A DNA stretch of 11,026 nt from a virus (IMGVR_UViG_2690316285_000015); one strand, 5' to 3'. Shown: positions 1-11,026, numbered from the stretch's first letter. Notes: generated by a model not told the origin, from the letters alone. Numbers and translations: made by a program.

Positions 1-207
1 TAAGTGATACTGGTTGTCTGGAGATTCAGGGGGCCAGTCTAGAGCATGAACGTTACAACGGTGAGGTAGTACCAAACGTTTACCCGAATCGATAACCTCA
101 CCTTTGAACGGGCTAATGAGAAGTTATCGCGGAATGGTATAGCTAATCGTATCCGTAAGGACATTACCATTGCTCAGGATGATTACATTACTAACCTCTT
201 CCCGAAG

Positions 208-1038
208 ATGCTGAAATGCGGTCACTGTGGGGGCAATATTGCAATTCACTATAATCATGTACGAACTAAGTATGTTATTTGTCGTAACAGGGAAGAAAAG
301 AAGATCTGCGATGCTAAATCTATCCAGTACATGAGAATTGAAAAGAACATTCTACAGCTTGTCAAAAATGTAGACTTCAATAAATTGATGATGGAAGGTA
401 AGTCGGATTCAGATTCATTGCTTGCATCATTGCGAGAAGAGTTAAGTACTTTACAGAAAGAGGCAGAAACCTATCAGGTTAAAATTAATGAACGTAAGGC
501 AGCAGGTAAGAAAGCCTCGTTACCATTAATGACGGGTTTAACTGAGGTACAGGATAGAATTGAAGAAATAGAATCTGAGATATTAAATTCAAAGAACATC
601 AAAGAAATCCCTGTATTTGATTTCGATATTAATAAAGTACTTGATCCATTGAATGTCGAGTTACGTGCAAAGTTACGGAAAGAAGTAAGATTAGTACTGA
701 AATCTGTTAAGTACTGGGTTTTTGAAAAGCGTATATTTGTACAGTTGGAATACTTCAATGATGTCCTATCCCATACGCTTGTGATTGATAACAAGCGGGG
801 CGGGGGTGAAGTACTACATGAGATCGTAATCTCTGAAACAAGCGGCGAGCGTGTCTACACTGTCAATGAAGAGGGCAAAACCGTTTTCATTGCCTCCGTT
901 ACATCTGGTACTGATATGTGGTCGCTTGCCATTAGCCGTACCAAAATACTTGATGATGTTGGATTGTATCTTAATCTTCTCAAGCGTGAAAAATTTGAGA
1001 TCATTGTTAATGAAGATATGATTGATTGGATGGATTAA
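208..1038 (+). CDS. Large serine recombinase, C-terminal region (zinc beta-ribbon plus coiled-coil); N-terminal catalytic part not intact in this window
   Basis: Translation begins ...LKCGHCGGNIAIHYNHVRTKYVICRNREEKKICDAKSIQYMRIEKNILQLV, matching the C-x2-C ... Y-x-C ... C pattern of the recombinase zinc beta-ribbon domain, followed by a charged coiled-coil-like stretch (LREELSTLQKEAETYQVKINERK...). The same frame is open back to 70 and encodes IDNLTFERANEKL, resembling the end of the recombinase domain, but TAG at 67-69 closes it and the only open frame upstream (frame 3, 3-92) ends at TAA 93-95. Confidence 0.65.
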   Translation: MLKCGHCGGNIAIHYNHVRTKYVICRNREEKKICDAKSIQYMRIEKNILQLVKNVDFNKLMMEGKSDSDSLLASLREELSTLQKEAETYQVKINERKAAGKKASLPLMTGLTEVQDRIEEIESEILNSKNIKEIPVFDFDINKVLDPLNVELRAKLRKEVRLVLKSVKYWVFEKRIFVQLEYFNDVLSHTLVIDNKRGGGEVLHEIVISETSGERVYTVNEEGKTVFIASVTSGTDMWSLAISRTKILDDVGLYLNLLKREKFEIIVNEDMIDWMD

Positions 1039-1333
1039 AAGCTAATGAGAATTTATGGTCTTGTAGAATGAATTATGCGAGTTAATATTTGAACAATATA
1101 TCTACGATGTCGAAATCTAACGGCATTGTAGATAGAGCAATAAAAGAGGGATTATGAATTTTGGATATAACTACGCACCCGATGGGTTTAAGATTTTCGT
1201 GCAAAATACAGCAAATCATTTATATCAGCGTGTGTTAGAATAGTCAAGGGTAAAATTAACTTTTTTGACTTTTCAACGTTAAACCAGTACCATAGCGTCA
1301 TTCATTAACGAATAGGAGCGATGAAACCATGAG

Positions 1334-1735
1334 ATGAATTCTAAAGAGAGGATTGCCAAAATGCGTAAGAAAGAAAATAAAGCAAAAAAAGAAAAATTCC
1401 GTCAATTTTTCCCTGAGAATTATGATATTGGGATCTCATTGAATGAAGAGAATCAATTAAGGCTTTTTTCAAAGCGGAATGATTCTCAAGATGAGAGCTT
1501 ATGCAAGTACGAATTTTCCAACAAAATTAAAGTTCAGTACATTTTTTTGCCGTATTCTTCTGAAATTCAAGTTATAACAGATGAGTTTCCGCTAACGGAG
1601 GCAGGCTGTCAGGAGTGTACTCAAGCTTTCAAACATCCAATATCAATGGAACTAATTGAAGAGATAAAAGAAGCAAAATGTTCAGTTACTGGACTTGTCA
1701 TTTATTCGAAACCTATACTAAAACTTATTAGCTAA
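1334..1735 (+). CDS. Hypothetical protein (133 aa; start could instead be ATG 1364)
   Basis: Open frame with lysine-rich N-terminus; GAGAGGA lies about 10 nt upstream of the alternative ATG at 1364; no recognisable domain. Confidence 0.4.
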   Translation: MNSKERIAKMRKKENKAKKEKFRQFFPENYDIGISLNEENQLRLFSKRNDSQDESLCKYEFSNKIKVQYIFLPYSSEIQVITDEFPLTEAGCQECTQAFKHPISMELIEEIKEAKCSVTGLVIYSKPILKLIS

Positions 1736-1811
1736 CACATCCAAATTGTTACGTTTTAAGTACTCCCTCACTAAATACTATAAAGTTGAATGTGAATGGG
1801 GGTACTTCAAA

Positions 1812-1985
1812 ATGGAATGGTTTACTAAATTACTTTACGAGATAGTAGGCTTTGTACTTTACATCTTTCTGATAATCCCAATATATATAGTGCTCATGTT
1901 TTTATCTATGATTTTAGTACTATTGCTTTCCCCATTAAAAATCAAATCGATAAATAAATACGTAGTAAGAAAAATGAAACGCTAA
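1812..1985 (+). CDS. Small hydrophobic membrane protein (57 aa from internal ATG; the ORF-track start at 1746 is TTG)
   Basis: GGGGG 9 nt upstream of ATG 1812; single long hydrophobic segment LYEIVGFVLYIFLIIPIYIVLMFLSMILVLLL followed by a basic tail; rho-independent terminator downstream. Confidence 0.4.
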   Translation: MEWFTKLLYEIVGFVLYIFLIIPIYIVLMFLSMILVLLLSPLKIKSINKYVVRKMKR

Positions 1986-2096
1986 AAGTTTTGGTGCTAT
2001 ACTAATAGTATCAGAACGATAATGCGTTTTGCCTTCCGCTCCAGCTTTGAACATAAATAATATAGCGACAATAAATTTCCTTTTTAATTAAGATTG

Positions 2097-2124
2097 CCTC
2101 TCTTGCGAGAGAGGTATCTTTTTA
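2097..2124 (+). terminator. Rho-independent terminator candidate
   Basis: Perfect 7-bp stem CCTCTCT / AGAGAGG (2097-2103 and 2108-2114) with 4-nt loop TGCG, followed by TATCTTTTTA. Confidence 0.55.
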
Positions 2125-2173
2125 ATTTGGATTTATAAATACAGTATACAAATACACCTATAAGGATATAGAA

Positions 2174-2359
2174 ATGAAAAAAGTAACTTTAAAGGAACGC
2201 AAACATCATGTAGTAACCGCACGTCTTAATGACGATCAAGTACTTGTACTTAACCAGCTAATTAGTAGTGGGAAGGTACAGAAAGATTCATTATCAGCCT
2301 GTGTTCAGTACTTAATTAATCAGTACATGATTTTACAGGGCGGTGGTAATGAAGAATGA
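2174..2359 (+). CDS. Small ribbon-helix-helix-like DNA-binding protein (CopG/MobC-like pattern)
   Basis: AAGGA 8 nt upstream of ATG; HHVVTARLNDDQVLVLNQLISSGKVQKDSLSACVQYLI fits beta-strand / helix / SLS-helix layout of RHH proteins; ends at TGA. Confidence 0.5.
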   Translation: MKKVTLKERKHHVVTARLNDDQVLVLNQLISSGKVQKDSLSACVQYLINQYMILQGGGNEE

Positions 2360-2651
2360 CTTTGATTTAGTACAATATTTTGATGATTACACAATAGTAG
2401 GGGATATGGATTATCACTATTTCTATTGTGTGAAGTATCAGGAAGGTTCATTAGAAGCACATTATGAACGAATTGGTGATCCAGAAGTATTAGGTACTAT
2501 TACATGGAATGGAAATTACCTAATCGACGGATTACCAATGGTAATGTTTGTACTGGCTGCTGAAGATGAACATAAGGAATGTTTAAACCGTTTGCTAATC
2601 GTATGTGAGAAGGCGAGGGATGAATATAGGCTAAATGCTACTGGCCTCTAA
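2349..2651 (+). CDS. Hypothetical protein (about 100 aa) overlapping the 3' end of the upstream RHH-like gene
   Basis: In-frame ATG at 2349 (ORF track starts at GTG 2343); overlaps the preceding gene by about 10 nt, suggesting translational coupling; no recognisable domain. Confidence 0.45.
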   Translation: MKNDFDLVQYFDDYTIVGDMDYHYFYCVKYQEGSLEAHYERIGDPEVLGTITWNGNYLIDGLPMVMFVLAAEDEHKECLNRLLIVCEKARDEYRLNATGL

Positions 2652-2705
2652 GTAGTAGCAGACGCGATCACATGGAGTGACGCGATAACAACAAGGACGT
2701 TTGAT

Positions 2706-3260
2706 ATGAACCCTAAAATCACTTGGAGATTAATTCCAAATTCAAAACATTACTACGTATCTGAAAATGGCGATGTTTACAATGATAAAACAAAACAGTA
2801 TATAGCTACGAAAAACCCATCTAATGGATACAAAAAAGTTTCTATTAATGGCAAATCACTATATGTACATGTTTTGGTTTGTACTTTATTCAATGGTGCT
2901 AAACCCATTGGAGGAAGATACACTGTAGATCATATCGACCGCGATAAAATGAATAACAAAGCAAAAAATTTACGTTGGGTAACTCAGAAGGTTAATAATT
3001 CCAATAGAAAGCATAAAGGTACTCGTACTCAAAAGCTTACTCTAAAGCAATGGTTAATGATTGTTGGAGAGTACCTTAAAGGACAATTATCTCAATATGC
3101 AATCACTAAATGGTTTTTAAATCAAACTGGTATTAATATTTGCCCTCAGAATATAGGTAAGTTATTCAAAGGTACTACCTATTCAAAATGGTACACAACA
3201 TATCTTACGAATAAGCAAAGACAAAGAATACAAAGCCTAACCATTCAACGTAAACCATAA
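2706..3260 (+). CDS. HNH homing endonuclease (HNH-AP2 type, phage freestanding endonuclease family)
   Basis: SLYVHVLVCTLFNGAKPIGGRYTVDHIDRDKMNNKAKNLRWVTQKVNN matches the conserved core of phage HNH homing endonucleases (H..L.. then HID..K.NN...NLR.VT...N); AAGGACG upstream of ATG. Confidence 0.8.
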   Translation: MNPKITWRLIPNSKHYYVSENGDVYNDKTKQYIATKNPSNGYKKVSINGKSLYVHVLVCTLFNGAKPIGGRYTVDHIDRDKMNNKAKNLRWVTQKVNNSNRKHKGTRTQKLTLKQWLMIVGEYLKGQLSQYAITKWFLNQTGINICPQNIGKLFKGTTYSKWYTTYLTNKQRQRIQSLTIQRKP

Positions 3261-3265
3261 AAAAT

Positions 3266-3285
3266 GCCAGTATTCCAGTACTGGC
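3266..3285 (+). terminator. Hairpin downstream of the homing endonuclease gene (weak terminator candidate)
   Basis: GCCAGTA (3266-3272) / TACTGGC (3279-3285) 7-bp stem, 6-nt loop; the downstream tract ATCTATTC is only weakly U-rich. The stem contains the AGTACT motif. Confidence 0.3.
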
Positions 3286-3381
3286 ATCTATTCAAAACTC
3301 AATGGCAATGAAGCCAAACTTATTAAATGGCCTGTAATCACTACGGGTCACGATTAATTAATTTATACAGGATTATTTATC

Positions 3382-3843
3382 ATGGCAAAAACCTATTCAA
3401 CTTTTGATAACAGAAACATAAAAGCACTAATTAGCCAGTACAAGCTATATAAAGATATCCCATGCGAAGACATCAAGAACATCATGAAGGACTCAGTAGC
3501 TAAACTTAAAGTGAGAGATAAGATTAGTGTATATGATGTGTTTGCAGTATTGAGTAATGAAGATGAATTACGGAATGATTTACTATTCAATACTATCAAT
3601 GCTATTAAAGTACAACAGAATAAGAAACAAGTAAAAGAACGTATGATCAGGTACTATGGGGCAGCGATCACGGATGCAGCAAAACGAATAGAGCAGTATA
3701 TGTTGGCACACCCAAACGCACTGCCAGCACCAGTATATGGACAAAGAACACTAACATATAAAGAGTTTGGTAAACTATTGGAACTACAAAAACAAGGTGA
3801 CTTTATTGATGACATGATCGAGTACTTAAAGGGCTTGCGTTAA
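3382..3843 (+). CDS. Hypothetical protein (153 aa)
   Basis: Long open frame with consistent coding composition; no recognisable motif. Confidence 0.5.
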   Translation: MAKTYSTFDNRNIKALISQYKLYKDIPCEDIKNIMKDSVAKLKVRDKISVYDVFAVLSNEDELRNDLLFNTINAIKVQQNKKQVKERMIRYYGAAITDAAKRIEQYMLAHPNALPAPVYGQRTLTYKEFGKLLELQKQGDFIDDMIEYLKGLR

Positions 3844-3852
3844 TTGTAACTT

Positions 3853-3889
3853 ATTACGGCATATTACGGCATGGATGTATGCCGTAATA
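3853..3889. repeat. ATTACGGCAT repeat cluster: two tandem direct copies plus one inverted copy forming an 11-bp stem hairpin
   Basis: ATTACGGCAT at 3853-3862 and 3863-3872, reverse complement ATGCCGTAAT at 3879-3888; further TACGGCA copies at 3887-3893 and 3922-3928; followed by an A7 run, not a T run. Confidence 0.6.
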
Positions 3890-4306
3890 CGGCAAAAAAA
3901 GCCCCTGAAACCCGCTATTTACCATCAATACGGCAACTAAGTATAGAGATACGAAATCCATTCCATTTCATTCCATGTATTTCTTTCTCTATCAGTATTC
4001 CAAGAAACTGTGACTTGCGTCACGAATACTACTCGTCGTGAACTCCTCGTAGTATTGGTTAGTAACGTTGCGTTTTTCTCGCCAGTACTCGAAAACCCGC
4101 AAGGCGTTACTACTCGCTTTGCTCGATAGATGTTAGTACAGCAAATGAAGTACCTAAAGTGAATTGGTAAGTACGACATGCCCCGCCAGTTCCACAACTC
4201 TCGCTCTGGTCATTTCCACTACTATGATGCTATTGGATAGCTACATAAAGTACTGGATCAAGTAGGCATTTTTTGTGTACAAAGAGGGAATTAAGAGAGG
4301 GATACC

Positions 4307-5050
4307 ATGAACAGAAAACAATTCATCCAGTCGCATGGTGCTACTTGTAGTAACTGGACTTGGAGTTGGTCATTTGTGAACCACGACAAGAAAATGGTTA
4401 TCTTTGGTGCATGGGATGTACAAAAAGAGCAAGAAAGATCAGTCATTCTGAGGGAGCGGTGGAAAACCAAAGTTGTGGAGGGAAAGGAAAGAAAAAATCT
4501 TGGATATATTCAAGCTATTGAACACATTCAATTGATAGCTGAAGGTTATGAGCTTTACACGTTTGATATGGAGCAGGGACGAAACGATGAGAATAGAGAT
4601 GTAGCTGTTATCAAACGGTTCACTCCAAAACTTGAAAAACGTTACCTTCGGAAAGAAGGAACAGTTTGGTATGCAGACTTTTTACCTAATCCATTTCCAG
4701 ATGAAATTACCTCACCTGAAAACTACGCTGAGGGTGCAAAAAAGCAAGTTACAGTAAACTCCTACGAGCGTGATCCAAAAGCACGACAGGCTTGTATTGA
4801 CCATCATGGTACTTCCTGCGGGTGTTGTGAGTTTAACTTTGAGAAAGTCTATGGTGAACACGCCAAGGGCTTTATACACGTTCATCATATCAAACCGCTA
4901 CACACAGTAGGCGAGGATTACGAGGTAAATCCAATTACTGATATGGTTCCACTTTGTCCAAACTGTCACGCAATGGTACATCGCGGTAACGAAGTATTAA
5001 GTGTCGAAAGTTTAAAAGCACTGTTGTTTAAAGACAGCAATAAAATTTGA
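4307..5050 (+). CDS. HNH nuclease with McrA-like C-terminal HNH domain and an N-terminal domain of unknown type (possible modification-dependent restriction-like enzyme)
   Basis: C-terminus CGCCEFNFEKVYGEHAKGFIHVHHIKPLHTVGEDYEVNPITDMVPLCPNCHAMVHRG has the C-x2-C ... HH ... N ... C-P-N-C-H arrangement of McrA-type HNH domains; AGAGAGGGA SD-like element just upstream of ATG; ends at TGA. Confidence 0.7.
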   Translation: MNRKQFIQSHGATCSNWTWSWSFVNHDKKMVIFGAWDVQKEQERSVILRERWKTKVVEGKERKNLGYIQAIEHIQLIAEGYELYTFDMEQGRNDENRDVAVIKRFTPKLEKRYLRKEGTVWYADFLPNPFPDEITSPENYAEGAKKQVTVNSYERDPKARQACIDHHGTSCGCCEFNFEKVYGEHAKGFIHVHHIKPLHTVGEDYEVNPITDMVPLCPNCHAMVHRGNEVLSVESLKALLFKDSNKI

Positions 5051-5132
5051 ATTTATTTTAGACTTGATACGACATACTTGAAAAGTTATGAATACAATAT
5101 GCTTTAAATTAGACATGTAAGTTGAGAGAAAA

Positions 5133-5606
5133 ATGAGCATAACAACAATAGCAGCTACATATAAAGATGTGTTAACTATTGCTTTTTCGGCGTTGTCATT
5201 TATTATTGCATGTACTTCCTTATACTTCTCCGGTAGGGCAGCATGGCATGATAGATCAAGGCTAAAAATAACAGCTGACCTCGTCTACGAGTCTTTTGAT
5301 GAGGAACCTTATAAAATCGAGGTGATAGTGATCAATGTTGGTAGGCGTGATGCAGTTTTGGAAGGGATGCTTTGCCATTATGAAAAAGGCATTAGGAGCC
5401 ATTCATCTCCAAAAGAGAGCATTGTTATTAAAGAAAAGCAAAGAAAAAAATTTGAATTGGTAAGCTCAGACTTAGTCACGATAGATAATGAATGTGATAT
5501 TTGTCATTTAGAAGATATAACTATTTTAGATGTGGAGGGGAATGAACATAAAATCCCTAACTCTCACAGACTCATTGCATTACTTAAGCAAGATAAAAAG
5601 ACTTAA
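5133..5606 (+). CDS. Membrane-anchored hypothetical protein (one N-terminal TM helix, about 120-aa soluble domain)
   Basis: Hydrophobic segment LTIAFSALSFIIACTSLYF near the N-terminus; lies 82 bp downstream of the HNH nuclease gene on the same strand. Confidence 0.5.
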   Translation: MSITTIAATYKDVLTIAFSALSFIIACTSLYFSGRAAWHDRSRLKITADLVYESFDEEPYKIEVIVINVGRRDAVLEGMLCHYEKGIRSHSSPKESIVIKEKQRKKFELVSSDLVTIDNECDICHLEDITILDVEGNEHKIPNSHRLIALLKQDKKT

Positions 5607-5644
5607 GAATAATATTTTTTGGAATGTAAGGTAAATGTTAGATG

Positions 5645-5686
5645 CCACTATAGATTGAGGGTTAGAACTACTAACCCACTATAGGG
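5645..5686 (+). promoter_or_regulatory. Two direct CCACTATAG repeats flanking a 7-bp stem hairpin; the cores resemble single-subunit phage RNA polymerase promoters
   Basis: CCACTATAGA at 5645-5654 and AACCCACTATAGGG at 5673-5686; hairpin GGGTTAG (5659-5665) / CTAACCC (5671-5677). T7 consensus core is CACTATAGGG and SP6 core is ACACTATAGA. Confidence 0.3.
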
Positions 5687-5862
5687 TTTACGAGATGATA
5701 AGAATGGAATTTAACACCTACGATGGTGATATATATTACTTCCTCTATTTATATAGGAGGTACGAAAGGGGGAGTACTTTAATGAAGACCTTATAAATCT
5801 TAATGTTGAGATGTTAGTTATAGCGGTGAGGATACCCCACCGTCTATTGGGAGTTGTGGACT

Positions 5863-6531
5863 CTAATTAGAGAAAACGAATAAGTTATTCATGTCCTTTT
5901 TCAAGGTTGCATGTGCTTCTATTAAACTATCAAATGTATCTACTAATAACTTTCCATAGCTGACATTGTAATGATATCTATCATGAATGTCATTTATATC
6001 AAAACTTATCGCTTCCCTCAATGTTCCTAAAGCAATTTGATTACTGAAGAAATAATTATTGAATATAGCTTCATCTTTTGGCGATACTTTCCAAAAGGTA
6101 AGTGATTGCAATTCGCTTTTTAATGAGGCTAACTTAATGTTTAATAGATCGATAACTTCTCGTTCAGTTTTAACTAAATGTGCGAAATTTTTTGGTTCTA
6201 TATCTGGTTCAGTATTGTTAAGGTTGCATATATTTTCATATGTTTTCAACATCTCCAACGAAAAAAGATCGCAATTAGTCCAGAACTTAGTAACTTGATT
6301 TAAAGCATTTTCCTTTATTTTAGTTTGAAACCAATTTTTAGCGTTCCATGCTGCATATAGGGCTGCTCCAGCCATAATGAGATTGGCAATAGAACTAACC
6401 CAGTCACTAACCGATCCCCACTCGAAACCTTCAGAACCAACAAAGAGTGATTTTATTAGTACTAAAATTACAACAACCAGTAATACTGCTACGGTCGATA
6501 AAAGAACGATATTTAATTTTCTACAATCCAT
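5863..6531 (-). CDS. Membrane protein (222 aa; two N-terminal TM helices and a cytoplasmic C-terminal domain)
   Basis: Hydrophobic segments IVLLSTVAVLLVVVILVLI and VSSIANLIMAGAALYAAW; AGGAA about 11 nt upstream of the minus-strand ATG; stop TAG. Confidence 0.55.
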   Translation of the reverse strand: MDCRKLNIVLLSTVAVLLVVVILVLIKSLFVGSEGFEWGSVSDWVSSIANLIMAGAALYAAWNAKNWFQTKIKENALNQVTKFWTNCDLFSLEMLKTYENICNLNNTEPDIEPKNFAHLVKTEREVIDLLNIKLASLKSELQSLTFWKVSPKDEAIFNNYFFSNQIALGTLREAISFDINDIHDRYHYNVSYGKLLVDTFDSLIEAHATLKKDMNNLFVFSN

Positions 6532-6604
6532 CGAAAGTAGTTCCTGAACGCATTAAAGGGGCAAATACTTTACCATCCGAAACACAATCAAGTACACTAC
6601 CCGT

Positions 6605-6660
6605 TCACGTACTGCTCACATGTTGGGTTTGTTATTTTGTTGGGGTGAGCAGTACGTGTA
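6605..6660. repeat. 15-bp perfect inverted repeat with 26-nt spacer between two minus-strand genes
   Basis: TCACGTACTGCTCAC (6605-6619) and GTGAGCAGTACGTGA (6646-6660); spacer has GTTGGG repeats; begins 4 nt after the stop of the upstream minus-strand gene; no U-tract on either strand. Confidence 0.6.
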
Positions 6661-6663
6661 TCC

Positions 6664-6975
6664 TCAGAAGGGTAGTTCCCCCTGATCACAGAACCAATCA
6701 CCTTCTTCACTGCTTTGATTCATCCGGTACTCAGCAGATAGATATGCTAACCCATCAATAACACTTATTAGTGGTGTTTCACAGGTAAGTACAAAACAAT
6801 CTCTCTCTATAGTACCTAACCAGTATTCCCTGTACTGATTCTGGAAGAATACCCTATCCCCATAATGAAATTCTGTTAGTGCAGATCCCCAATAACACAC
6901 GGTTGCCCAGCGACCGTTATGTGAGAACTTCTGAACCCCTCGCGTAATGGATGGATCATAGCCGTCTTTGCTCAT
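6664..6975 (-). CDS. Hypothetical soluble protein (103 aa)
   Basis: Strong SD: reverse complement of 6976-6995 reads AGAGGAGGGTAACAA immediately before the ATG; ends at TGA; no recognisable domain. Confidence 0.5.
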   Translation of the reverse strand: MSKDGYDPSITRGVQKFSHNGRWATVCYWGSALTEFHYGDRVFFQNQYREYWLGTIERDCFVLTCETPLISVIDGLAYLSAEYRMNQSSEEGDWFCDQGELPF

Positions 6976-7082
6976 TTGTTACCCTCCTCTATGTATTACT
7001 GTATATATGTACAGTATTGCAGTCAGTTTCCCAAAAATCCAGCACCCCTTTGTTTACCACTTTGAATGATTAATTCTATTGT

Positions 7083-7135
7083 AATGATCAATAAAATTGA
7101 TCGATTTAATTGCCAATGTTTTAAAAATGATCAAT
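7083..7135. promoter_or_regulatory. Operator-like repeats AATGATCAAT with three GATC sites, in the divergent intergenic region
   Basis: AATGATCAAT at 7083-7092 and 7126-7135; palindrome GATCAAT-AAA-ATTGATC at 7086-7102; GATC at 7086, 7099 and 7129. Confidence 0.4.
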
Positions 7136-7167
7136 TATCAATAACTTAAAGCGTAACGAGCAAAGTT

Positions 7168-7719
7168 ATGAACATTGATAATTGGGCAATACCGATAACA
7201 AGTTTGGGTGGTCAGTTGCTGGGGGTTGAGTTGGTCAGCCATGTAGAACGCGAGGGAATCAGGCAGATCGGCCTATGGGAAGAAGAAGTACTTCATGGGC
7301 AACTAATGCTTATTGAAAGCAAGGCGGCATGGTTCAGGGATAACGGTTTGTATTGTGTGATTACTACTGGCCGTGGTGAACCATACGAGTACTTACCATT
7401 CCTTCGGCAGATGACAAGGGATATGAAAGTACATAACCAGCAGTGGCTTGATGATCTCGGTGTACATGGTGGTTCTGCTATTCCTCTGGTTACAGGTGAT
7501 TTCGAGGTTGCCCGATTAAATAGAAGGTACACAGAAGAGAACATTGACCGTCTGATCTTTCCAGTACTCATAAAAAGCATTCGCCAGTACTGCGAGAAGG
7601 TGATCGTACCCGTCAGAGATAAAACGTATTACCCAATTCTCAGAGAGGCCGGTGTATGGGCGGTACAGGGAGAGTTCAGGCCAATGCGTTTTGAGCAATG
7701 TGAAAAATTAATAGGATAA
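7168..7719 (+). CDS. Degenerate EAL-like domain protein (YdiV/RflP-like; catalytic motifs not conserved)
   Basis: AIPITSLGGQLLGVELVSHV parallels the start of EAL domains (QPIV...G.EAL.R) with ELV in place of EAL; WLDDLGVHGGSA parallels the DDFGTG(Y)S motif in degenerate form; C-terminal AVQGEF parallels the (V/L)QG(Y/F) motif. At 183 aa it is shorter than catalytic EAL domains. Confidence 0.55.
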   Translation: MNIDNWAIPITSLGGQLLGVELVSHVEREGIRQIGLWEEEVLHGQLMLIESKAAWFRDNGLYCVITTGRGEPYEYLPFLRQMTRDMKVHNQQWLDDLGVHGGSAIPLVTGDFEVARLNRRYTEENIDRLIFPVLIKSIRQYCEKVIVPVRDKTYYPILREAGVWAVQGEFRPMRFEQCEKLIG

Positions 7720-7724
7720 CAATA

Positions 7725-8087
7725 ATGAAAAAATTACTAATTGGGTTACTGATTGCCCTTAGTACTGGATGTACTACTACGCACAGCTTCATGGATAAAG
7801 CTTACGTTGGCTATGTAGATGACAAGGCCGTAGTACTGTTTGATGCAGGAACACGTAATGGGGTGAAGTACTACCGTCCTCAGTTCCAGAGTGATTGCGG
7901 TCGCATCTATAACAAGATCTATCATGATGACAATACAAGTACTGGATGCCTCATACGAGATTCCCGCATTGCTGAACTACATCCCTATAGAGAGCATGTA
8001 AGTAAGGTAGTACCACATCAGACCGATAGTGTTCACGATTGGTTAGAAGGGGTCAATTCACCATCCCATATCCTCGACAATCTATAG
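7725..8087 (+). CDS. Putative lipoprotein (120 aa)
   Basis: Signal peptide MKKLLIGLLIALSTGC with Cys16 followed by TTTHS (lipobox-like, not canonical); starts 5 nt after the EAL-like gene stop with AGGAT upstream; stop TAG. Confidence 0.6.
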   Translation: MKKLLIGLLIALSTGCTTTHSFMDKAYVGYVDDKAVVLFDAGTRNGVKYYRPQFQSDCGRIYNKIYHDDNTSTGCLIRDSRIAELHPYREHVSKVVPHQTDSVHDWLEGVNSPSHILDNL

Positions 8088-8094
8088 GGTACGT

Positions 8095-8364
8095 ATGGGA
8101 AAGGTAATGGTGATTTTGTTAGTACTGGCTGGGGTACTCTTCAACATTGCAGGTGAGGATGCACCCCAGCCACAGTACACGGACAATGAGAACCAGAACG
8201 CTATGGATTTCGCACAGTCACTAATCAAGGGTAAGTACCCATGCGATATGGTGACTATGGATAGTACTGAGAATGGTACAGGACGTATTGATGTACGGTG
8301 TGATGGTAAGTACCAGTATGAGATCATCCGGCATGATGGACAATGGCAGGTAGTATCGAAGTAA
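8095..8364 (+). CDS. Small secreted or periplasmic protein (89 aa) with N-terminal signal peptide
   Basis: MGKVMVILLVLAGVLFNIAG followed by a polar mature region with two Cys; starts 7 nt after the upstream stop. Confidence 0.55.
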   Translation: MGKVMVILLVLAGVLFNIAGEDAPQPQYTDNENQNAMDFAQSLIKGKYPCDMVTMDSTENGTGRIDVRCDGKYQYEIIRHDGQWQVVSK

Positions 8365-8469
8365 TCCGAAAAGTTTAGTGCTTAGGCTGTATGGTGAGAA
8401 TCTACAGGGCTTTTTCTTTATGCGGTGATAAGATCGGAGTGAACTTTTTATGAAGGAATAGTTAGTAGA

Positions 8470-8910
8470 ATGAAAATTACAGTCGATAATATCTCTGAAA
8501 TGTTTGCAGGAACTAAAGAACTACTAATCGGTGGCTTAATAACAGGTATCGTCGGAGTACTTATTTTAACTCGTGTTAGTGGTTATGAATACGTTAAAGT
8601 ACCTTTAATGTTAGTAATGATATTCTTACTAACTGTAGTTCCTGGTTTTATTGCTATGCTTTTTTCACCACTAACGAAAGTATTTGCAAAGATATTTGAT
8701 ATTAAAAGCAGTAATATACTTTGCCGCATTTTCTCATTTCTATATTTCATCTTGTATATGGCTATTACTTTCTTGGTGACTAATTTTATATTCACTACCG
8801 CAATGTCATTACACGGCGGGGATGGTGGGTTGAGAGCATGTTTTGCAATTGGCTGTTTTGTCGTTGCAGTTGAGCAGACAAGAAAATTCTATAGTTTGCT
8901 TATCAAGTAA
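8470..8910 (+). CDS. Integral membrane protein (146 aa, about 4 TM helices)
   Basis: Four hydrophobic segments (e.g. LLIGGLITGIVGVLILTRV, LMLVMIFLLTVVPGFIAMLF, IFSFLYFILYMAITFLVTNFIF, LRACFAIGCFVVAV); AAGGAA upstream. Confidence 0.55.
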   Translation: MKITVDNISEMFAGTKELLIGGLITGIVGVLILTRVSGYEYVKVPLMLVMIFLLTVVPGFIAMLFSPLTKVFAKIFDIKSSNILCRIFSFLYFILYMAITFLVTNFIFTTAMSLHGGDGGLRACFAIGCFVVAVEQTRKFYSLLIK

Positions 8911-8932
8911 AGGGCAAGTACTAAAGAAATGT

Positions 8933-8967
8933 GTATTTGATGAAGGGTAAGTACTTTCATCAAATAC
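8933..8967 (+). terminator. 12-bp stem hairpin 22 nt after the membrane protein gene stop (possible terminator or processing site; no U-tract)
   Basis: GTATTTGATGAA (8933-8944) / TTCATCAAATAC (8956-8967) with 11-nt loop GGGTAAGTACT that contains AGTACT and GGTAAGTAC. Confidence 0.3.
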
Positions 8968-9249
8968 GCAACAAATTACAAGGTGAGCATTTCATCACAA
9001 TTGTTTTAATTAACGATATTTTAAATTATTTTACGTAATTGAAACAAAATCAGCCATATCGCTTGTTAATTGGTATTGAGACTTTGTAGGTGTTATCATG
9101 CAATTAAATCATTTGCATTGGTATCTCTTATGGAAAAATTGATATTGCTATTATTATTACCTTTAACAACAAGTGCAGCTATTCCAGACTTTAAATGCTG
9201 GGATATTCATAACGATTCATTTAGTACTGACATGAGTTTCTACGTTACA

Positions 9250-9475
9250 AGATATCTCGAACCGTAATTATATCCATCATCAAATGCTTCATTGGTTATT
9301 ACCAGTTCCCTGTAAAATTTCTNNNNNNNNNNNNNNNNNNNAGATATCTCGGTAAAATGCCGCCGCCTTATGGTGCATTTCATTATGAAACAGCACCTGA
9401 TGAGAAATTTTACAGGGAACTGGTAATAACCAATGAAGCATTTGATGATGGATATAATTACGGTTCGAGATATCT
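9250..9475. repeat. 73-bp perfect inverted repeat flanking an assembly gap
   Basis: Left arm 9250-9322 is the exact reverse complement of right arm 9403-9475; between them lie the N run and 61 bp of unique sequence (9342-9402). The palindromic octamer AGATATCT occurs at 9250, 9342 and 9468. Confidence 0.7.
9323..9341. other. Assembly gap (19 N)
   Basis: Run of n characters; true length and content unknown. Confidence 0.95.
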
Positions 9476-9669
9476 AAACAAAGAAGGAACTTTGTACGAT
9501 GATATTAAATGTAAGCGGCTTTGATACTCATGATTCATTGTATATAGCTTACAAAGTATATTAACCATTGCATTCAATGGGTCCCTCCATACTGGCGGTA
9601 CTATCGAGGGTTTTCGGCAGCGGGTTTAATCAATTGTGTGTGAACAAAATGATCATACCCGCACCGCAT

Positions 9670-10998
<1,329 letters not shown>

Positions 10999-11026
10999 AG
11001 TGGTCAACAAAAACTGGCCACCGAGT

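What the first reader, a model, noticed from the sequence alone, without database searches (positions are those of the whole stretch)
1..345. Serine recombinase gene appears frame-disrupted upstream of its zinc-ribbon domain
The zinc-ribbon/coiled-coil ORF (208-1038) has only about 46 in-frame codons upstream (70-207, ...RIDNLTFERANEKL...) before TAG at 67-69. A different frame (3-92) is open from the window edge and ends at TAA 93-95. A functional large serine recombinase needs a catalytic domain of about 150 aa and a recombinase domain upstream of the zinc ribbon. This therefore looks like a +1 frameshift near 67-95: a pseudogene in a decaying prophage, a sequencing indel in a draft assembly, or less likely programmed frameshifting. 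The large terminase gene at the other end shows the same kind of +1 interruption.
Basis: partly seen in the sequence, partly recalled or inferred. Interest (0 to 1): 0.45.

Follow-up and report, generated by a model that had tools for sequence, protein, structure and literature searches.

The report
IS2-cut, deletion-scarred prophage integrase pseudogene
The "frameshift" is real, but it is a 236-base deletion inside a prophage integrase gene that an IS2 insertion sequence has also cut off 47 bases upstream; this is ordinary gene decay in Shigella sonnei.

Summary
The window is a whole draft contig of Shigella sonnei (GCA_001250495.1, CXDI01000130.1). Its ends are the tips of two insertion sequences: IS2 at 1-41 and IS911 at 10996-11026.

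The frame change is not a one-base slip. Compared with uninterrupted S. sonnei copies and with the intact 644-aa orthologue of Enterobacter roggenkampii, the window lacks 236 bp at junction 88|89. That is codons 250-328 less one base, which moves the reading frame from frame 3 to frame 1.

The "frame open from the window edge" is IS2 sequence for its first 39 bases. Recombinase DNA starts only at base 42 (codon 235). The catalytic domain and most of the recombinase domain are therefore separated from this piece by IS2.

ORF 208-1038 is a leftover starting at internal Met369. It encodes the zinc ribbon, the coiled coil and the C-terminal part.

None of the S. sonnei copies listed is full length. 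They are broken at about ten different places, several of them at IS600 or IS1 ends.

The "interrupted terminase" is really a Nu1-like small-subunit gene overlapping the start of a gpA-type large-subunit gene, which IS911 then cuts.

The deletion is seen only in this one assembly, which has a scaffolding artefact elsewhere, so confirmation from reads is still needed. Interest is low.

The parts
1..41 (-). Last 41 nt of IS2: the left inverted repeat, with its outer end at base 41. The IS2 body and its transposase genes lie upstream of the window on the minus strand.
   Evidence: 41/41 identical to IS2 copies in Stx phages and 40/41 identical to others. In two unrelated contexts (L001, L006) a shared 1332-nt element, aligned with 7 mismatches, ends at the same ...GGCCAGTCTA. 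In both it has 5-bp target duplications (GTCAC, CAGGC) and unrelated flanks. ORF1 and ORF2 are on the minus strand in window orientation.
42..46 (.). GAGCA, the predicted 5-bp IS2 target-site duplication. This is inferred; the other copy is outside the window.
   Evidence: Native recombinase sequence resumes exactly at base 42. IS2 copies in L001 and L006 show 5-bp duplications.
42..88 (+). Recombinase codons 235-249 (EHERYNGEVVPNVYP) plus two bases of codon 250, in window frame 3.
   Evidence: 47/47 identical to L002 23-69 and to L004 5942-5988. It is 91% identical to the Enterobacter gene at L008 10703-10749.
88..89 (.). Deletion junction. 236 bp present in all relatives are missing here (L002 70-305, with one shared A), which is codons 250-328 less one base.
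   Evidence: blastn: window 42-88 = L002 23-69 and window 88-9259 = L002 305-9476. The same gap appears against L004 and against E. roggenkampii L008 10750-10984. The protein alignment shows all relatives down to 50% identity carrying the segment.
67..69 (+). TAG in frame 1. It lies in the upstream piece (GGT GAG GTA GTA = G-E-V-V in frame 3), read out of frame.
93..95 (+). TAA in frame 3. It lies in the downstream piece (GAT AAC = D330-N331 in frame 1), read out of frame.
88..1041 (+). Recombinase codons 329-644 plus the stop codon, in window frame 1. This covers the tail of the second recombinase-domain repeat, the zinc ribbon, the coiled coil and the C-terminal domain.
   Evidence: 9170/9172 identity to L002 over 88-9259. 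The translation aligns to residues 329-644 of the 644-aa protein at 100%.
208..1041 (+). Residual ORF as gene callers report it: 276 aa, starting at internal Met369. It is deposited as CSQ84731.1 / WP_289844620.1, 'zinc ribbon domain-containing protein'.
199..363 (+). Zinc beta-ribbon domain with four conserved Cys (C372, C375, C393, C402 of the full protein).
   Evidence: Pfam PF13408, E 5.7e-10, 39.9 bits against a cut-off of 25.3. The Cys columns are 90% or more conserved.
10269..10817 (+). Nu1-like small terminase subunit gene (181 aa).
   Evidence: phrog_57, E 1.3e-22. Pfam Phage_Nu1 gives E 7.6e-5, below its cut-off.
10729..10995 (+). N-terminal 89 codons of a gpA-type large terminase gene. 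It overlaps the end of the small-subunit gene in another frame.
   Evidence: 100% identical to L002 10854-11120, where the ORF runs on uninterrupted and hits Pfam GpA_ATPase (E 3.5e-10). phrog_15, E 1.4e-5.
10996..11026 (+). First 31 nt of IS911 (TGAAGTGGTCAAC...), which cuts the large terminase gene.
   Evidence: Identical to the annotated IS911 end in phage Sf6. Homology to L002 stops at 10995.

Best explanation
Bases 1-1041 hold the 3' remnant of a 644-aa large serine recombinase gene. This gene is the integrase of a prophage-like element that sits next to prkA/yeaG in Shigella sonnei. The copy is dead for two separate reasons.

1. An IS2 element abuts codon 235 (window 41|42). The catalytic resolvase domain and most of the recombinase domain are therefore not contiguous with this piece.

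2. Forty-seven bases further on (88|89), 236 bp are missing. The gap runs from the 'KIID' motif of the recombinase domain (codon 250) to the 'KIID' motif of a second, shorter copy of that domain (codon 327). Because 236 is not a multiple of 3, reading moves from window frame 3 to frame 1.

ORF 208-1038 is only what a gene caller finds downstream: an internal Met369 followed by the zinc ribbon, coiled coil and C-terminal domain. It has no catalytic serine and cannot recombine DNA, so the element can no longer excise through this enzyme.

Shown directly: the IS2 end, the missing 236 bp, the frames, and the domain content. Inferred: that the IS2 contact is a simple insertion with a GAGCA duplication; that the deletion exists in the cell rather than only in the assembly; and that it arose by illegitimate recombination between the two imperfect 13-nt repeats GAAAATCATCGAC and GAAGATTATCGAT, which lie 231 bp apart (the junction keeps GAA and TCGAT and loses the 5 nt between them).
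For: IS2 end: searches give 100% matches to IS2 copies. In one search, IS2 in two unrelated contexts ends at the base equivalent to window 41, with 5-bp duplications.

Identity of the contig and host: L005 is identical to the window. Homologues are named S. sonnei.

Deletion: (window 42-88 = L002 23-69; 88-9259 = L002 305-9476; same against L004). One search shows the same 236-nt gap against the E. roggenkampii orthologue. In one search, eight relatives of 50-87% identity all carry residues 250-328.

One continuous gene in relatives: P0046 is 644 aa with Resolvase 5-158, Recombinase 188-266 (two stretches) and Zn ribbon 367-420. The S. sonnei protein reconstructed from P0009 and P0001 is also 644 aa and 87% identical to P0046.

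Internal repeat 189-266 vs 280-343. Pfam Recombinase hits the deleted segment (E 1.1e-6).

Decay context: the 33 S. sonnei copies aligned are all fragments. Their ends include IS600 at codon 227, IS600 and IS1 at codons 340-342, and IS1 at codon 426. Hawkey et al. 2020 (PMC7373316; read) report expansion of IS1, IS2, IS4, IS600 and IS911 in all Shigella, with the highest recent activity in S. sonnei.
Against: The 236-bp deletion was found in no other assembly. The two Logan contigs that encode the identical 276-aa ORF (L017, L018) owe it to different lesions, an IS600 end at window 120|121 and an IS1 end at 123|124, so they do not confirm the deletion.

The same contig carries an obvious scaffolding artefact: 19 Ns next to an inverted duplicate at 9260-9341, absent from L002 and L015. 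The assembly is therefore not error-free.

The other side of IS2 is not in the window. A simple insertion cannot be told apart from an IS2-mediated rearrangement. Whether this strain also carries the IS600 that sits 22 nt upstream in other strains is unknown.
Confidence: 0.8

Rival explanations
1. The 236-bp gap is an assembly or scaffolding error of this draft genome. The isolate really has the undeleted sequence downstream of IS2, so the gene would be truncated by IS2 only.
For: The deletion is seen only in this assembly. The contig has a clear scaffolding artefact at 9260-9341, with Ns and an inverted duplicate. The junction lies only 47 nt from a contig end.
Against: There are no Ns at the junction. 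The two sides share one base only, so neither k-mer collapse nor overlap-merging of contig ends would join them. Both flanks are otherwise clean copies of the native sequence: 47/47 on the left, and 2 mismatches in 9172 nt on the right. A junction like this normally requires reads that span it.
Confidence: 0.15
2. A single-base frameshift (mutation or sequencing indel) near 67-95 in an otherwise complete recombinase gene that continues upstream of the window.
For: Two adjacent frames each carry recombinase-like sequence and change over within 67-95.
Against: Alignment to five independent intact sequences shows 236 bp missing, not 1 or 2. Bases 1-41 are IS2, so the gene does not continue upstream.
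Confidence: 0.01
3. Programmed +1 ribosomal frameshifting joins the two frames into a functional protein.
For: None beyond the frame arrangement.
Against: Relatives in Shigella, Enterobacter and Klebsiella encode the region as one frame. Only 15 recombinase codons precede the junction and there is no start codon or catalytic domain, because IS2 is there. The product would also lack 79 conserved residues.
Confidence: 0.005
4. ORF 208-1038 is an independent, functional zinc-ribbon/coiled-coil gene, for example a regulator or recombination directionality partner, rather than a remnant.
For: It is an intact 276-aa ORF annotated as a protein in RefSeq. The same 276-aa product is left by three different upstream lesions in three isolates.
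Against: Its Met is internal Met369 of a 644-aa protein in every intact relative. The three lesions simply leave the same first ATG. No promoter-like site lies upstream of 208, and the six sites found across 1-1400 are no more than the shuffles give (6 found, 5.4 expected). No relative has it as a free-standing gene next to a complete recombinase.
Confidence: 0.03

Closest known systems
Large serine recombinases (phage integrases of the phiC31 / Bxb1 / TP901-1 / Listeria A118 type)
   Same: The intact orthologue has the defining order of domains: an N-terminal resolvase catalytic domain, a recombinase domain, a zinc beta-ribbon and a long helical coiled-coil region (Pfam). A profile of the family weakly matches the TP901-1 integrase catalytic domain, PDB 3bvp, at E 0.014. 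It is the first gene of a prophage at a fixed chromosomal site next to prkA/yeaG.
   Different: The window copy lacks the catalytic domain, most of the recombinase domain and 79 further residues, and it is out of frame. The family is distant from studied enzymes: no PDB hit by single sequence, and at best 28% identity over the N-terminal 40% to any deposited phage. It also carries a second partial copy of the recombinase domain (residues 280-343).
IS-driven pseudogene formation in Shigella (IS1, IS2, IS4, IS600, IS911 expansion; Hawkey et al. 2020, PMC7373316)
   Same: The contig is bounded by IS2 and IS911 ends that cut two phage genes. Other isolates carry IS600 and IS1 in the same recombinase gene. 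The paper reports these same five IS expanding in all Shigella, with the greatest recent activity in S. sonnei and at least 199 pseudogenes per genome.
   Different: Nothing essential differs. This copy additionally has a non-IS lesion, the 236-bp deletion.
Phage lambda Nu1/A terminase gene pair
   Same: A 181-aa Nu1-like small-subunit gene whose end overlaps, in another frame, the start of a gpA-type large-subunit gene. I recall from memory that lambda Nu1 is also 181 aa and overlaps A.
   Different: The overlap here is up to 86 nt if the first ATG of the large-subunit ORF is used. The large-subunit gene is cut by IS911 after 89 codons.

Membership tests
Large serine recombinase (functional gene) | N-terminal resolvase-type catalytic domain with the nucleophilic serine | tested here: not met
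   It is absent from the window: recombinase DNA starts at codon 235, directly after the IS2 end, and there is no Pfam Resolvase hit in window translations. It is present in intact relatives (PF00239, E 1.5e-11, residues 5-158, motif YERVSS).
Large serine recombinase (functional gene) | Recombinase domain (PF07508) between the catalytic domain and the zinc ribbon | tested here: not met
   Only 15 codons (235-249) and the tail from codon 329 remain. There is no PF07508 hit in the window or in a stitched translation. Intact P0046 scores E 1.4e-14.
Large serine recombinase (functional gene) | Zinc beta-ribbon domain with four Cys | tested here: met
   PF13408, E 5.7e-10, above its cut-off. C372, C375, C393 and C402 are conserved in 90% or more of relatives.
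Large serine recombinase (functional gene) | Coiled-coil motif within or after the zinc ribbon domain | tested here: inconclusive
   The AF2 model of P0001 has two long helices (206-239 and 246-271), most of which falls in 10-residue blocks with mean pLDDT of about 80-90. The model as a whole is poor, with mean pLDDT 58.9, and no fold search was made.
Large serine recombinase (functional gene) | One uninterrupted reading frame across all domains | tested here: not met
   The frame changes at 88|89, with stops at 67-69 and 93-95 and IS2 at 41|42.
Large serine recombinase (homology, i.e. derived from such a gene) | Collinear, near-identical to full-length members over the retained parts | tested here: met
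   100% identical to residues 235-249 and 329-644 of the reconstructed S. sonnei protein. That full-length protein is 87% identical to the 644-aa E. roggenkampii protein; over residues 329-644 the window copy is about 81% identical to it by tblastx.
IS2 (IS3 family) | Terminal inverted repeat sequence ending ...GGCCAGTCTA at the junction with target DNA | tested here: met
   41/41 identity to IS2 copies. The end of homology coincides with the IS2 terminus in two unrelated contexts.
IS2 (IS3 family) | 5-bp target-site duplication and the two transposase ORFs | not testable with these tools
   The rest of IS2 and its other flank lie outside the contig.
IS911 (IS3 family) | Terminal sequence TGAAGTGGTCAACAAAAACTGGCCACCGAGT at the junction | tested here: met
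   Identical to the annotated IS911 end in phage Sf6. Homology to the uninterrupted terminase gene (L002) stops at 10995.
Programmed ribosomal frameshift | The two-frame arrangement is conserved in homologues, with a complete upstream ORF | tested here: not met
   Homologues are single-frame. The upstream 'ORF' is IS2 sequence plus 15 codons.

The most novel reading that the evidence does not exclude
The recombinase gene is broken at about ten different places among the 33 S. sonnei copies aligned, by IS600, IS2, IS1 and at least one deletion, and none of those copies is full length. The most novel reading is that this is not neutral decay. It could reflect selection to lock the element into the chromosome, or an IS target hot spot in this gene. 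A further point is that the family carries a duplicated recombinase sub-domain, and the window's deletion nearly collapses the two copies back into one.
Probability: 0.08. Interest if true: 0.35.

Novelty: already known. Interest (0 to 1): 0.08.

Why it matters
It matters little beyond annotation. It shows that a frame break read from raw sequence as a "+1 frameshift" can be a large deletion lying next to an insertion-sequence scar. It also shows that contigs of Shigella drafts typically begin and end in IS tips, which mimic open reading frames running off the edge. In practice, the 276-aa RefSeq protein WP_289844620.1 ("zinc ribbon domain-containing protein") is a fragment of a pseudogene. 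The element can no longer use this integrase to excise. The uncharacterised 644-aa recombinase family itself is intact in Enterobacter and integrates next to prkA/yeaG. It might interest people collecting new large serine integrases, but that is not what the finding is about.

Tried and rejected
- megablast of window 42-1300 against 5,426 complete E. coli genomes, and blastn against deposited phages, found nothing. Related DNA had to come from protein look-ups.
- I first took the occurrence of the exact 276-aa protein in two Logan assemblies as independent confirmation of the deletion. Fetching their DNA showed different lesions, IS600 and IS1 ends at window 120-124, so I withdrew that argument.
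- MAFFT misplaced the deletion by spreading the IS2 end over the gap. I used pairwise blastn instead.
- phmmer of the full protein against PDB found nothing. A 10-sequence profile gave only a weak TP901-1 catalytic-domain hit.
- The AlphaFold2 model of the 417-aa fragment, from a 13-sequence alignment, was poor (pLDDT 58.9), so I made no fold search.
- Rfam, tRNA and promoter/terminator scans of the window or of its first 1400 bases showed nothing relevant.
- L015, an S. sonnei contig starting at window 127, was checked as a possible second deletion allele. It is simply L002 344-11253.

Full report
**Observation**

- Frame 1 has TAG at 67-69, then 46 open codons (70-207) before ATG 208. The ORF 208-1038 encodes 276 aa.
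- Frame 3 is open from base 3 to TAA at 93-95.
- Pfam finds the recombinase zinc beta-ribbon (PF13408, E 5.7e-10) at about nt 199-363. It finds no resolvase or recombinase domain in any translation of 1-345, including a stitched one.

**What the window is**

- Bases 1-41 match the end of insertion sequence IS2 at 97.6-100%.
- IS2 copies in two unrelated places, a Stx2c phage (L001) and phage SfX (L006), share a 1332-nt element. In both it ends at the base equivalent to window 41 (...GGCCAGTCTA). It is followed by unrelated DNA and framed by 5-bp target duplications.
- The IS2 ORFs are on the minus strand in window orientation.
- At the other end, 10996-11026 is the first 31 nt of IS911, as annotated in phage Sf6.
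- The window is identical to contig CXDI01000130.1 of Shigella sonnei assembly GCA_001250495.1.

It is therefore a complete short-read contig that stops in repeated IS copies at both ends. This is the usual picture in Shigella.

**The gene and the frame break**

The nearest proteins are S. sonnei "resolvase/recombinase, partial" entries. I fetched their DNA: L002 and L003 (11.25-kb contigs covering codons 228-644 and the same downstream genes) and L004 (codons 1-486, next to prkA/yeaG).

Pairwise blastn gives:
- window 42-88 = L002 23-69 (47/47)
- window 88-9259 = L002 305-9476 (2 mismatches)
- the same two blocks against L004

The window therefore lacks L002 70-305, which is 236 bp, with one shared A at the junction. 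The orthologue from Enterobacter roggenkampii shows the same gap: window 42-88 = L008 10703-10749 and window 88-1037 = L008 10985-11934.

In protein terms the window keeps residues 235-249 (EHERYNGEVVPNVYP, frame 3) and 329-644 (IDNLTFERANEKL..., frame 1). It lacks residues 250-328, which every relative down to 50% identity possesses. Since 236 = 79 codons minus one base, the downstream part is shifted from frame 3 to frame 1.

**The intact protein**

Joining P0009 (N-terminal part) and P0001 (C-terminal part) gives a 644-aa S. sonnei protein. It is 87% identical to the intact 644-aa P0046 of E. roggenkampii. Pfam on P0046 gives:
- Resolvase, residues 5-158 (E 1.5e-11)
- Recombinase, residues 188-266, plus a second stretch (E 1.4e-14)
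- Zn_ribbon_recom, residues 367-420 (E 7.8e-9)

This is the architecture of a large serine recombinase. A family profile weakly matches the TP901-1 integrase catalytic domain (3bvp, E 0.014).

The protein contains an internal repeat: residues 189-266 align with 280-343, and the deleted segment alone hits the Recombinase model (E 1.1e-6). The deletion runs from the KIID motif ending repeat 1 (codon 250) to the KIID motif ending repeat 2 (codon 327). At DNA level these are GAAAATCATCGAC and GAAGATTATCGAT, 231 bp apart. The junction reads GAA|TCGAT, that is an in-register loss plus 5 more bases (and direct reading). I infer illegitimate recombination between these short imperfect repeats, but I cannot show it.

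The "frame open from the window edge" is IS2 sequence for bases 3-41. Only 15 recombinase codons lie between IS2 and the deletion. No catalytic domain lies upstream in any frame.

The gene has two independent inactivating lesions in this contig, and ORF 208-1038 is just what follows internal Met369. Without the catalytic serine domain the product cannot cut or join DNA. This follows from established knowledge of serine recombinases.

**Is the deletion real?**

This is the weakest link.
- I first thought it was confirmed because the exact 276-aa protein also occurs in two Logan assemblies.
- Their DNA shows otherwise. L017 starts with an IS600 end joined to window 121 onwards, and L018 starts with an IS1 end joined to window 124 onwards. 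I recognised the IS1 end from memory. The IS600 end was checked against pCP301, where it lies upstream of "IS600 ORF2".
- Three different lesions therefore leave the same first ATG, and the deletion is known only from the window's assembly.
- That assembly is imperfect. 9323-9341 are Ns, and 9260-9322 is an inverted copy of 9403-9465, absent from L002, L003 and L015.
- Against an artefact: the junction has no Ns, the two sides share only one base, and both flanks match native sequence (47/47 on the left; 2 mismatches in 9172 nt on the right). A de Bruijn assembler or an overlap-based gap closer has no reason to join them without spanning reads.

I put the deletion at about 0.8-0.85 real. The IS2 truncation does not depend on it.

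**Population context**

The 33 S. sonnei copies aligned are all fragments. Their ends fall at about residues 184, 199-205, 225-228, 316-326, 340-342, 423-426, 446-447, 478-512 and 522. Several of these carry IS-encoded tails or heads:
- IS600 after codon 227 (L012-L014; L002 starts at the very next base)
- IS1 at codon 426 (the tail GNDSNLLIVFYVQIMP is the translation of the IS1 end, recognised from memory)
- IS600 and IS1 at codons 340-342

Hawkey et al. 2020 (PMC7373316) describe this situation. IS1, IS2, IS4, IS600 and IS911 have expanded in all Shigella, recent activity is highest in S. sonnei, and each genome has at least 199 pseudogenes. The finding is therefore an ordinary instance of a known process.

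**The terminase remark**

- 10269-10814 is a 181-aa small terminase subunit (phrog_57, E 1.3e-22; weak Pfam Phage_Nu1).
- 10729-10995 is the start of a gpA-type large subunit. It is 100% identical to L002 10854-11120, where the ORF continues without interruption and hits GpA_ATPase (E 3.5e-10).
- The two genes overlap in different frames, as I recall lambda Nu1 and A do.
- There is no frameshift. The gene is cut by IS911 at 10995|10996.

**Other checks**

- Only the recombinase gene is shared with the Enterobacter element. Nothing downstream is shared.
- No deposited phage has a close relative of the recombinase (best 28% identity over the N-terminal 40%).
- No complete E. coli genome has this DNA at megablast level.
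- Rfam, tRNA and promoter/terminator scans were empty or at chance level.
- The AlphaFold2 model was too poor to use.

**Verdict**

- Observation: confirmed.
- Interpretation: partly supported. "Pseudogene in a decaying prophage" is right. "+1 frameshift", "gene continues upstream" and "terminase likewise" are wrong.
- Kind: already known.
- Interest: low.

Noticed in passing
window 9250-9475: 19 Ns (9323-9341) are preceded by a 63-nt inverted copy (9260-9322) of 9403-9465. Together with the shared 10-nt AGATATCTCG this makes a perfect 73-nt inverted repeat. It is absent from three other S. sonnei contigs of the same locus (L002, L003, L015). The native sequence has 10-nt inverted repeats flanking the 114-nt segment. 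This looks like a scaffolding or fold-back artefact, but a minority inversion cannot be excluded without reads.
   Followed up: partly
window 10269-11026: The supposed frameshifted terminase is a Nu1-like small-subunit gene (10269-10814) overlapping the start of a gpA-type large-subunit gene (10729 onwards). IS911 cuts the large-subunit gene at 10995|10996, and its TGA supplies the stop codon of the 89-aa fragment.
   Followed up: yes
L012-L014 (about 3680-3711), L017 1-27, L018 1-27, and proteins P0014, P0019, P0020, P0032: Other S. sonnei isolates carry different lesions in the same recombinase gene: IS600 after codon 227, IS600 and IS1 at codons 340-342, IS1 at codon 426, and further breaks at about 447 and about 503. 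None of the 33 S. sonnei copies aligned is full length.
   Followed up: partly
L008-L011, 10001-21935: The intact 644-aa orthologue in Enterobacter roggenkampii sits at the same chromosomal place, 90 nt from prkA/yeaG. It heads a completely different prophage that encodes a T7-type single-subunit RNA polymerase (875 aa, Pfam RNA_pol and RPOL_N) and a phage endonuclease I. This is a T7-like temperate element using a large serine integrase.
   Followed up: no
residues 189-266 and 280-343 of the 644-aa protein (the second copy is deleted from the window; = L002 about 150-350): The recombinase family has a second, shorter copy of the first part of the Pfam Recombinase domain. It is conserved in Shigella, Enterobacter and Klebsiella relatives down to 50% identity. 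Its structural role is unknown, and the AF2 model was too poor to judge.
   Followed up: partly
window 1334-10290: Most ORFs between the recombinase and the terminase genes have no PHROG or Pfam match. These are 1334-1735, 3382-3843, 5133-5606, 5863-6531(-), 7725-8087, 8470-8910 and 9670-10290(-). The exceptions are two HNH endonuclease genes (2706-3260 and 4307-5050), 6664-6975(-), which hits phrog_2100 of unknown function (E 4.8e-9), and 7168-7719, which weakly hits phrog_32988 of unknown function (E 4e-4).
   Followed up: partly
window 1-11: The contig starts in the middle of an IS2-internal palindrome (TATCACTTA tt TAAGTGATA in L001). Its length of 41 nt inside IS2 probably reflects the assembler breaking at that palindrome rather than a k-mer overlap.
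   Followed up: no
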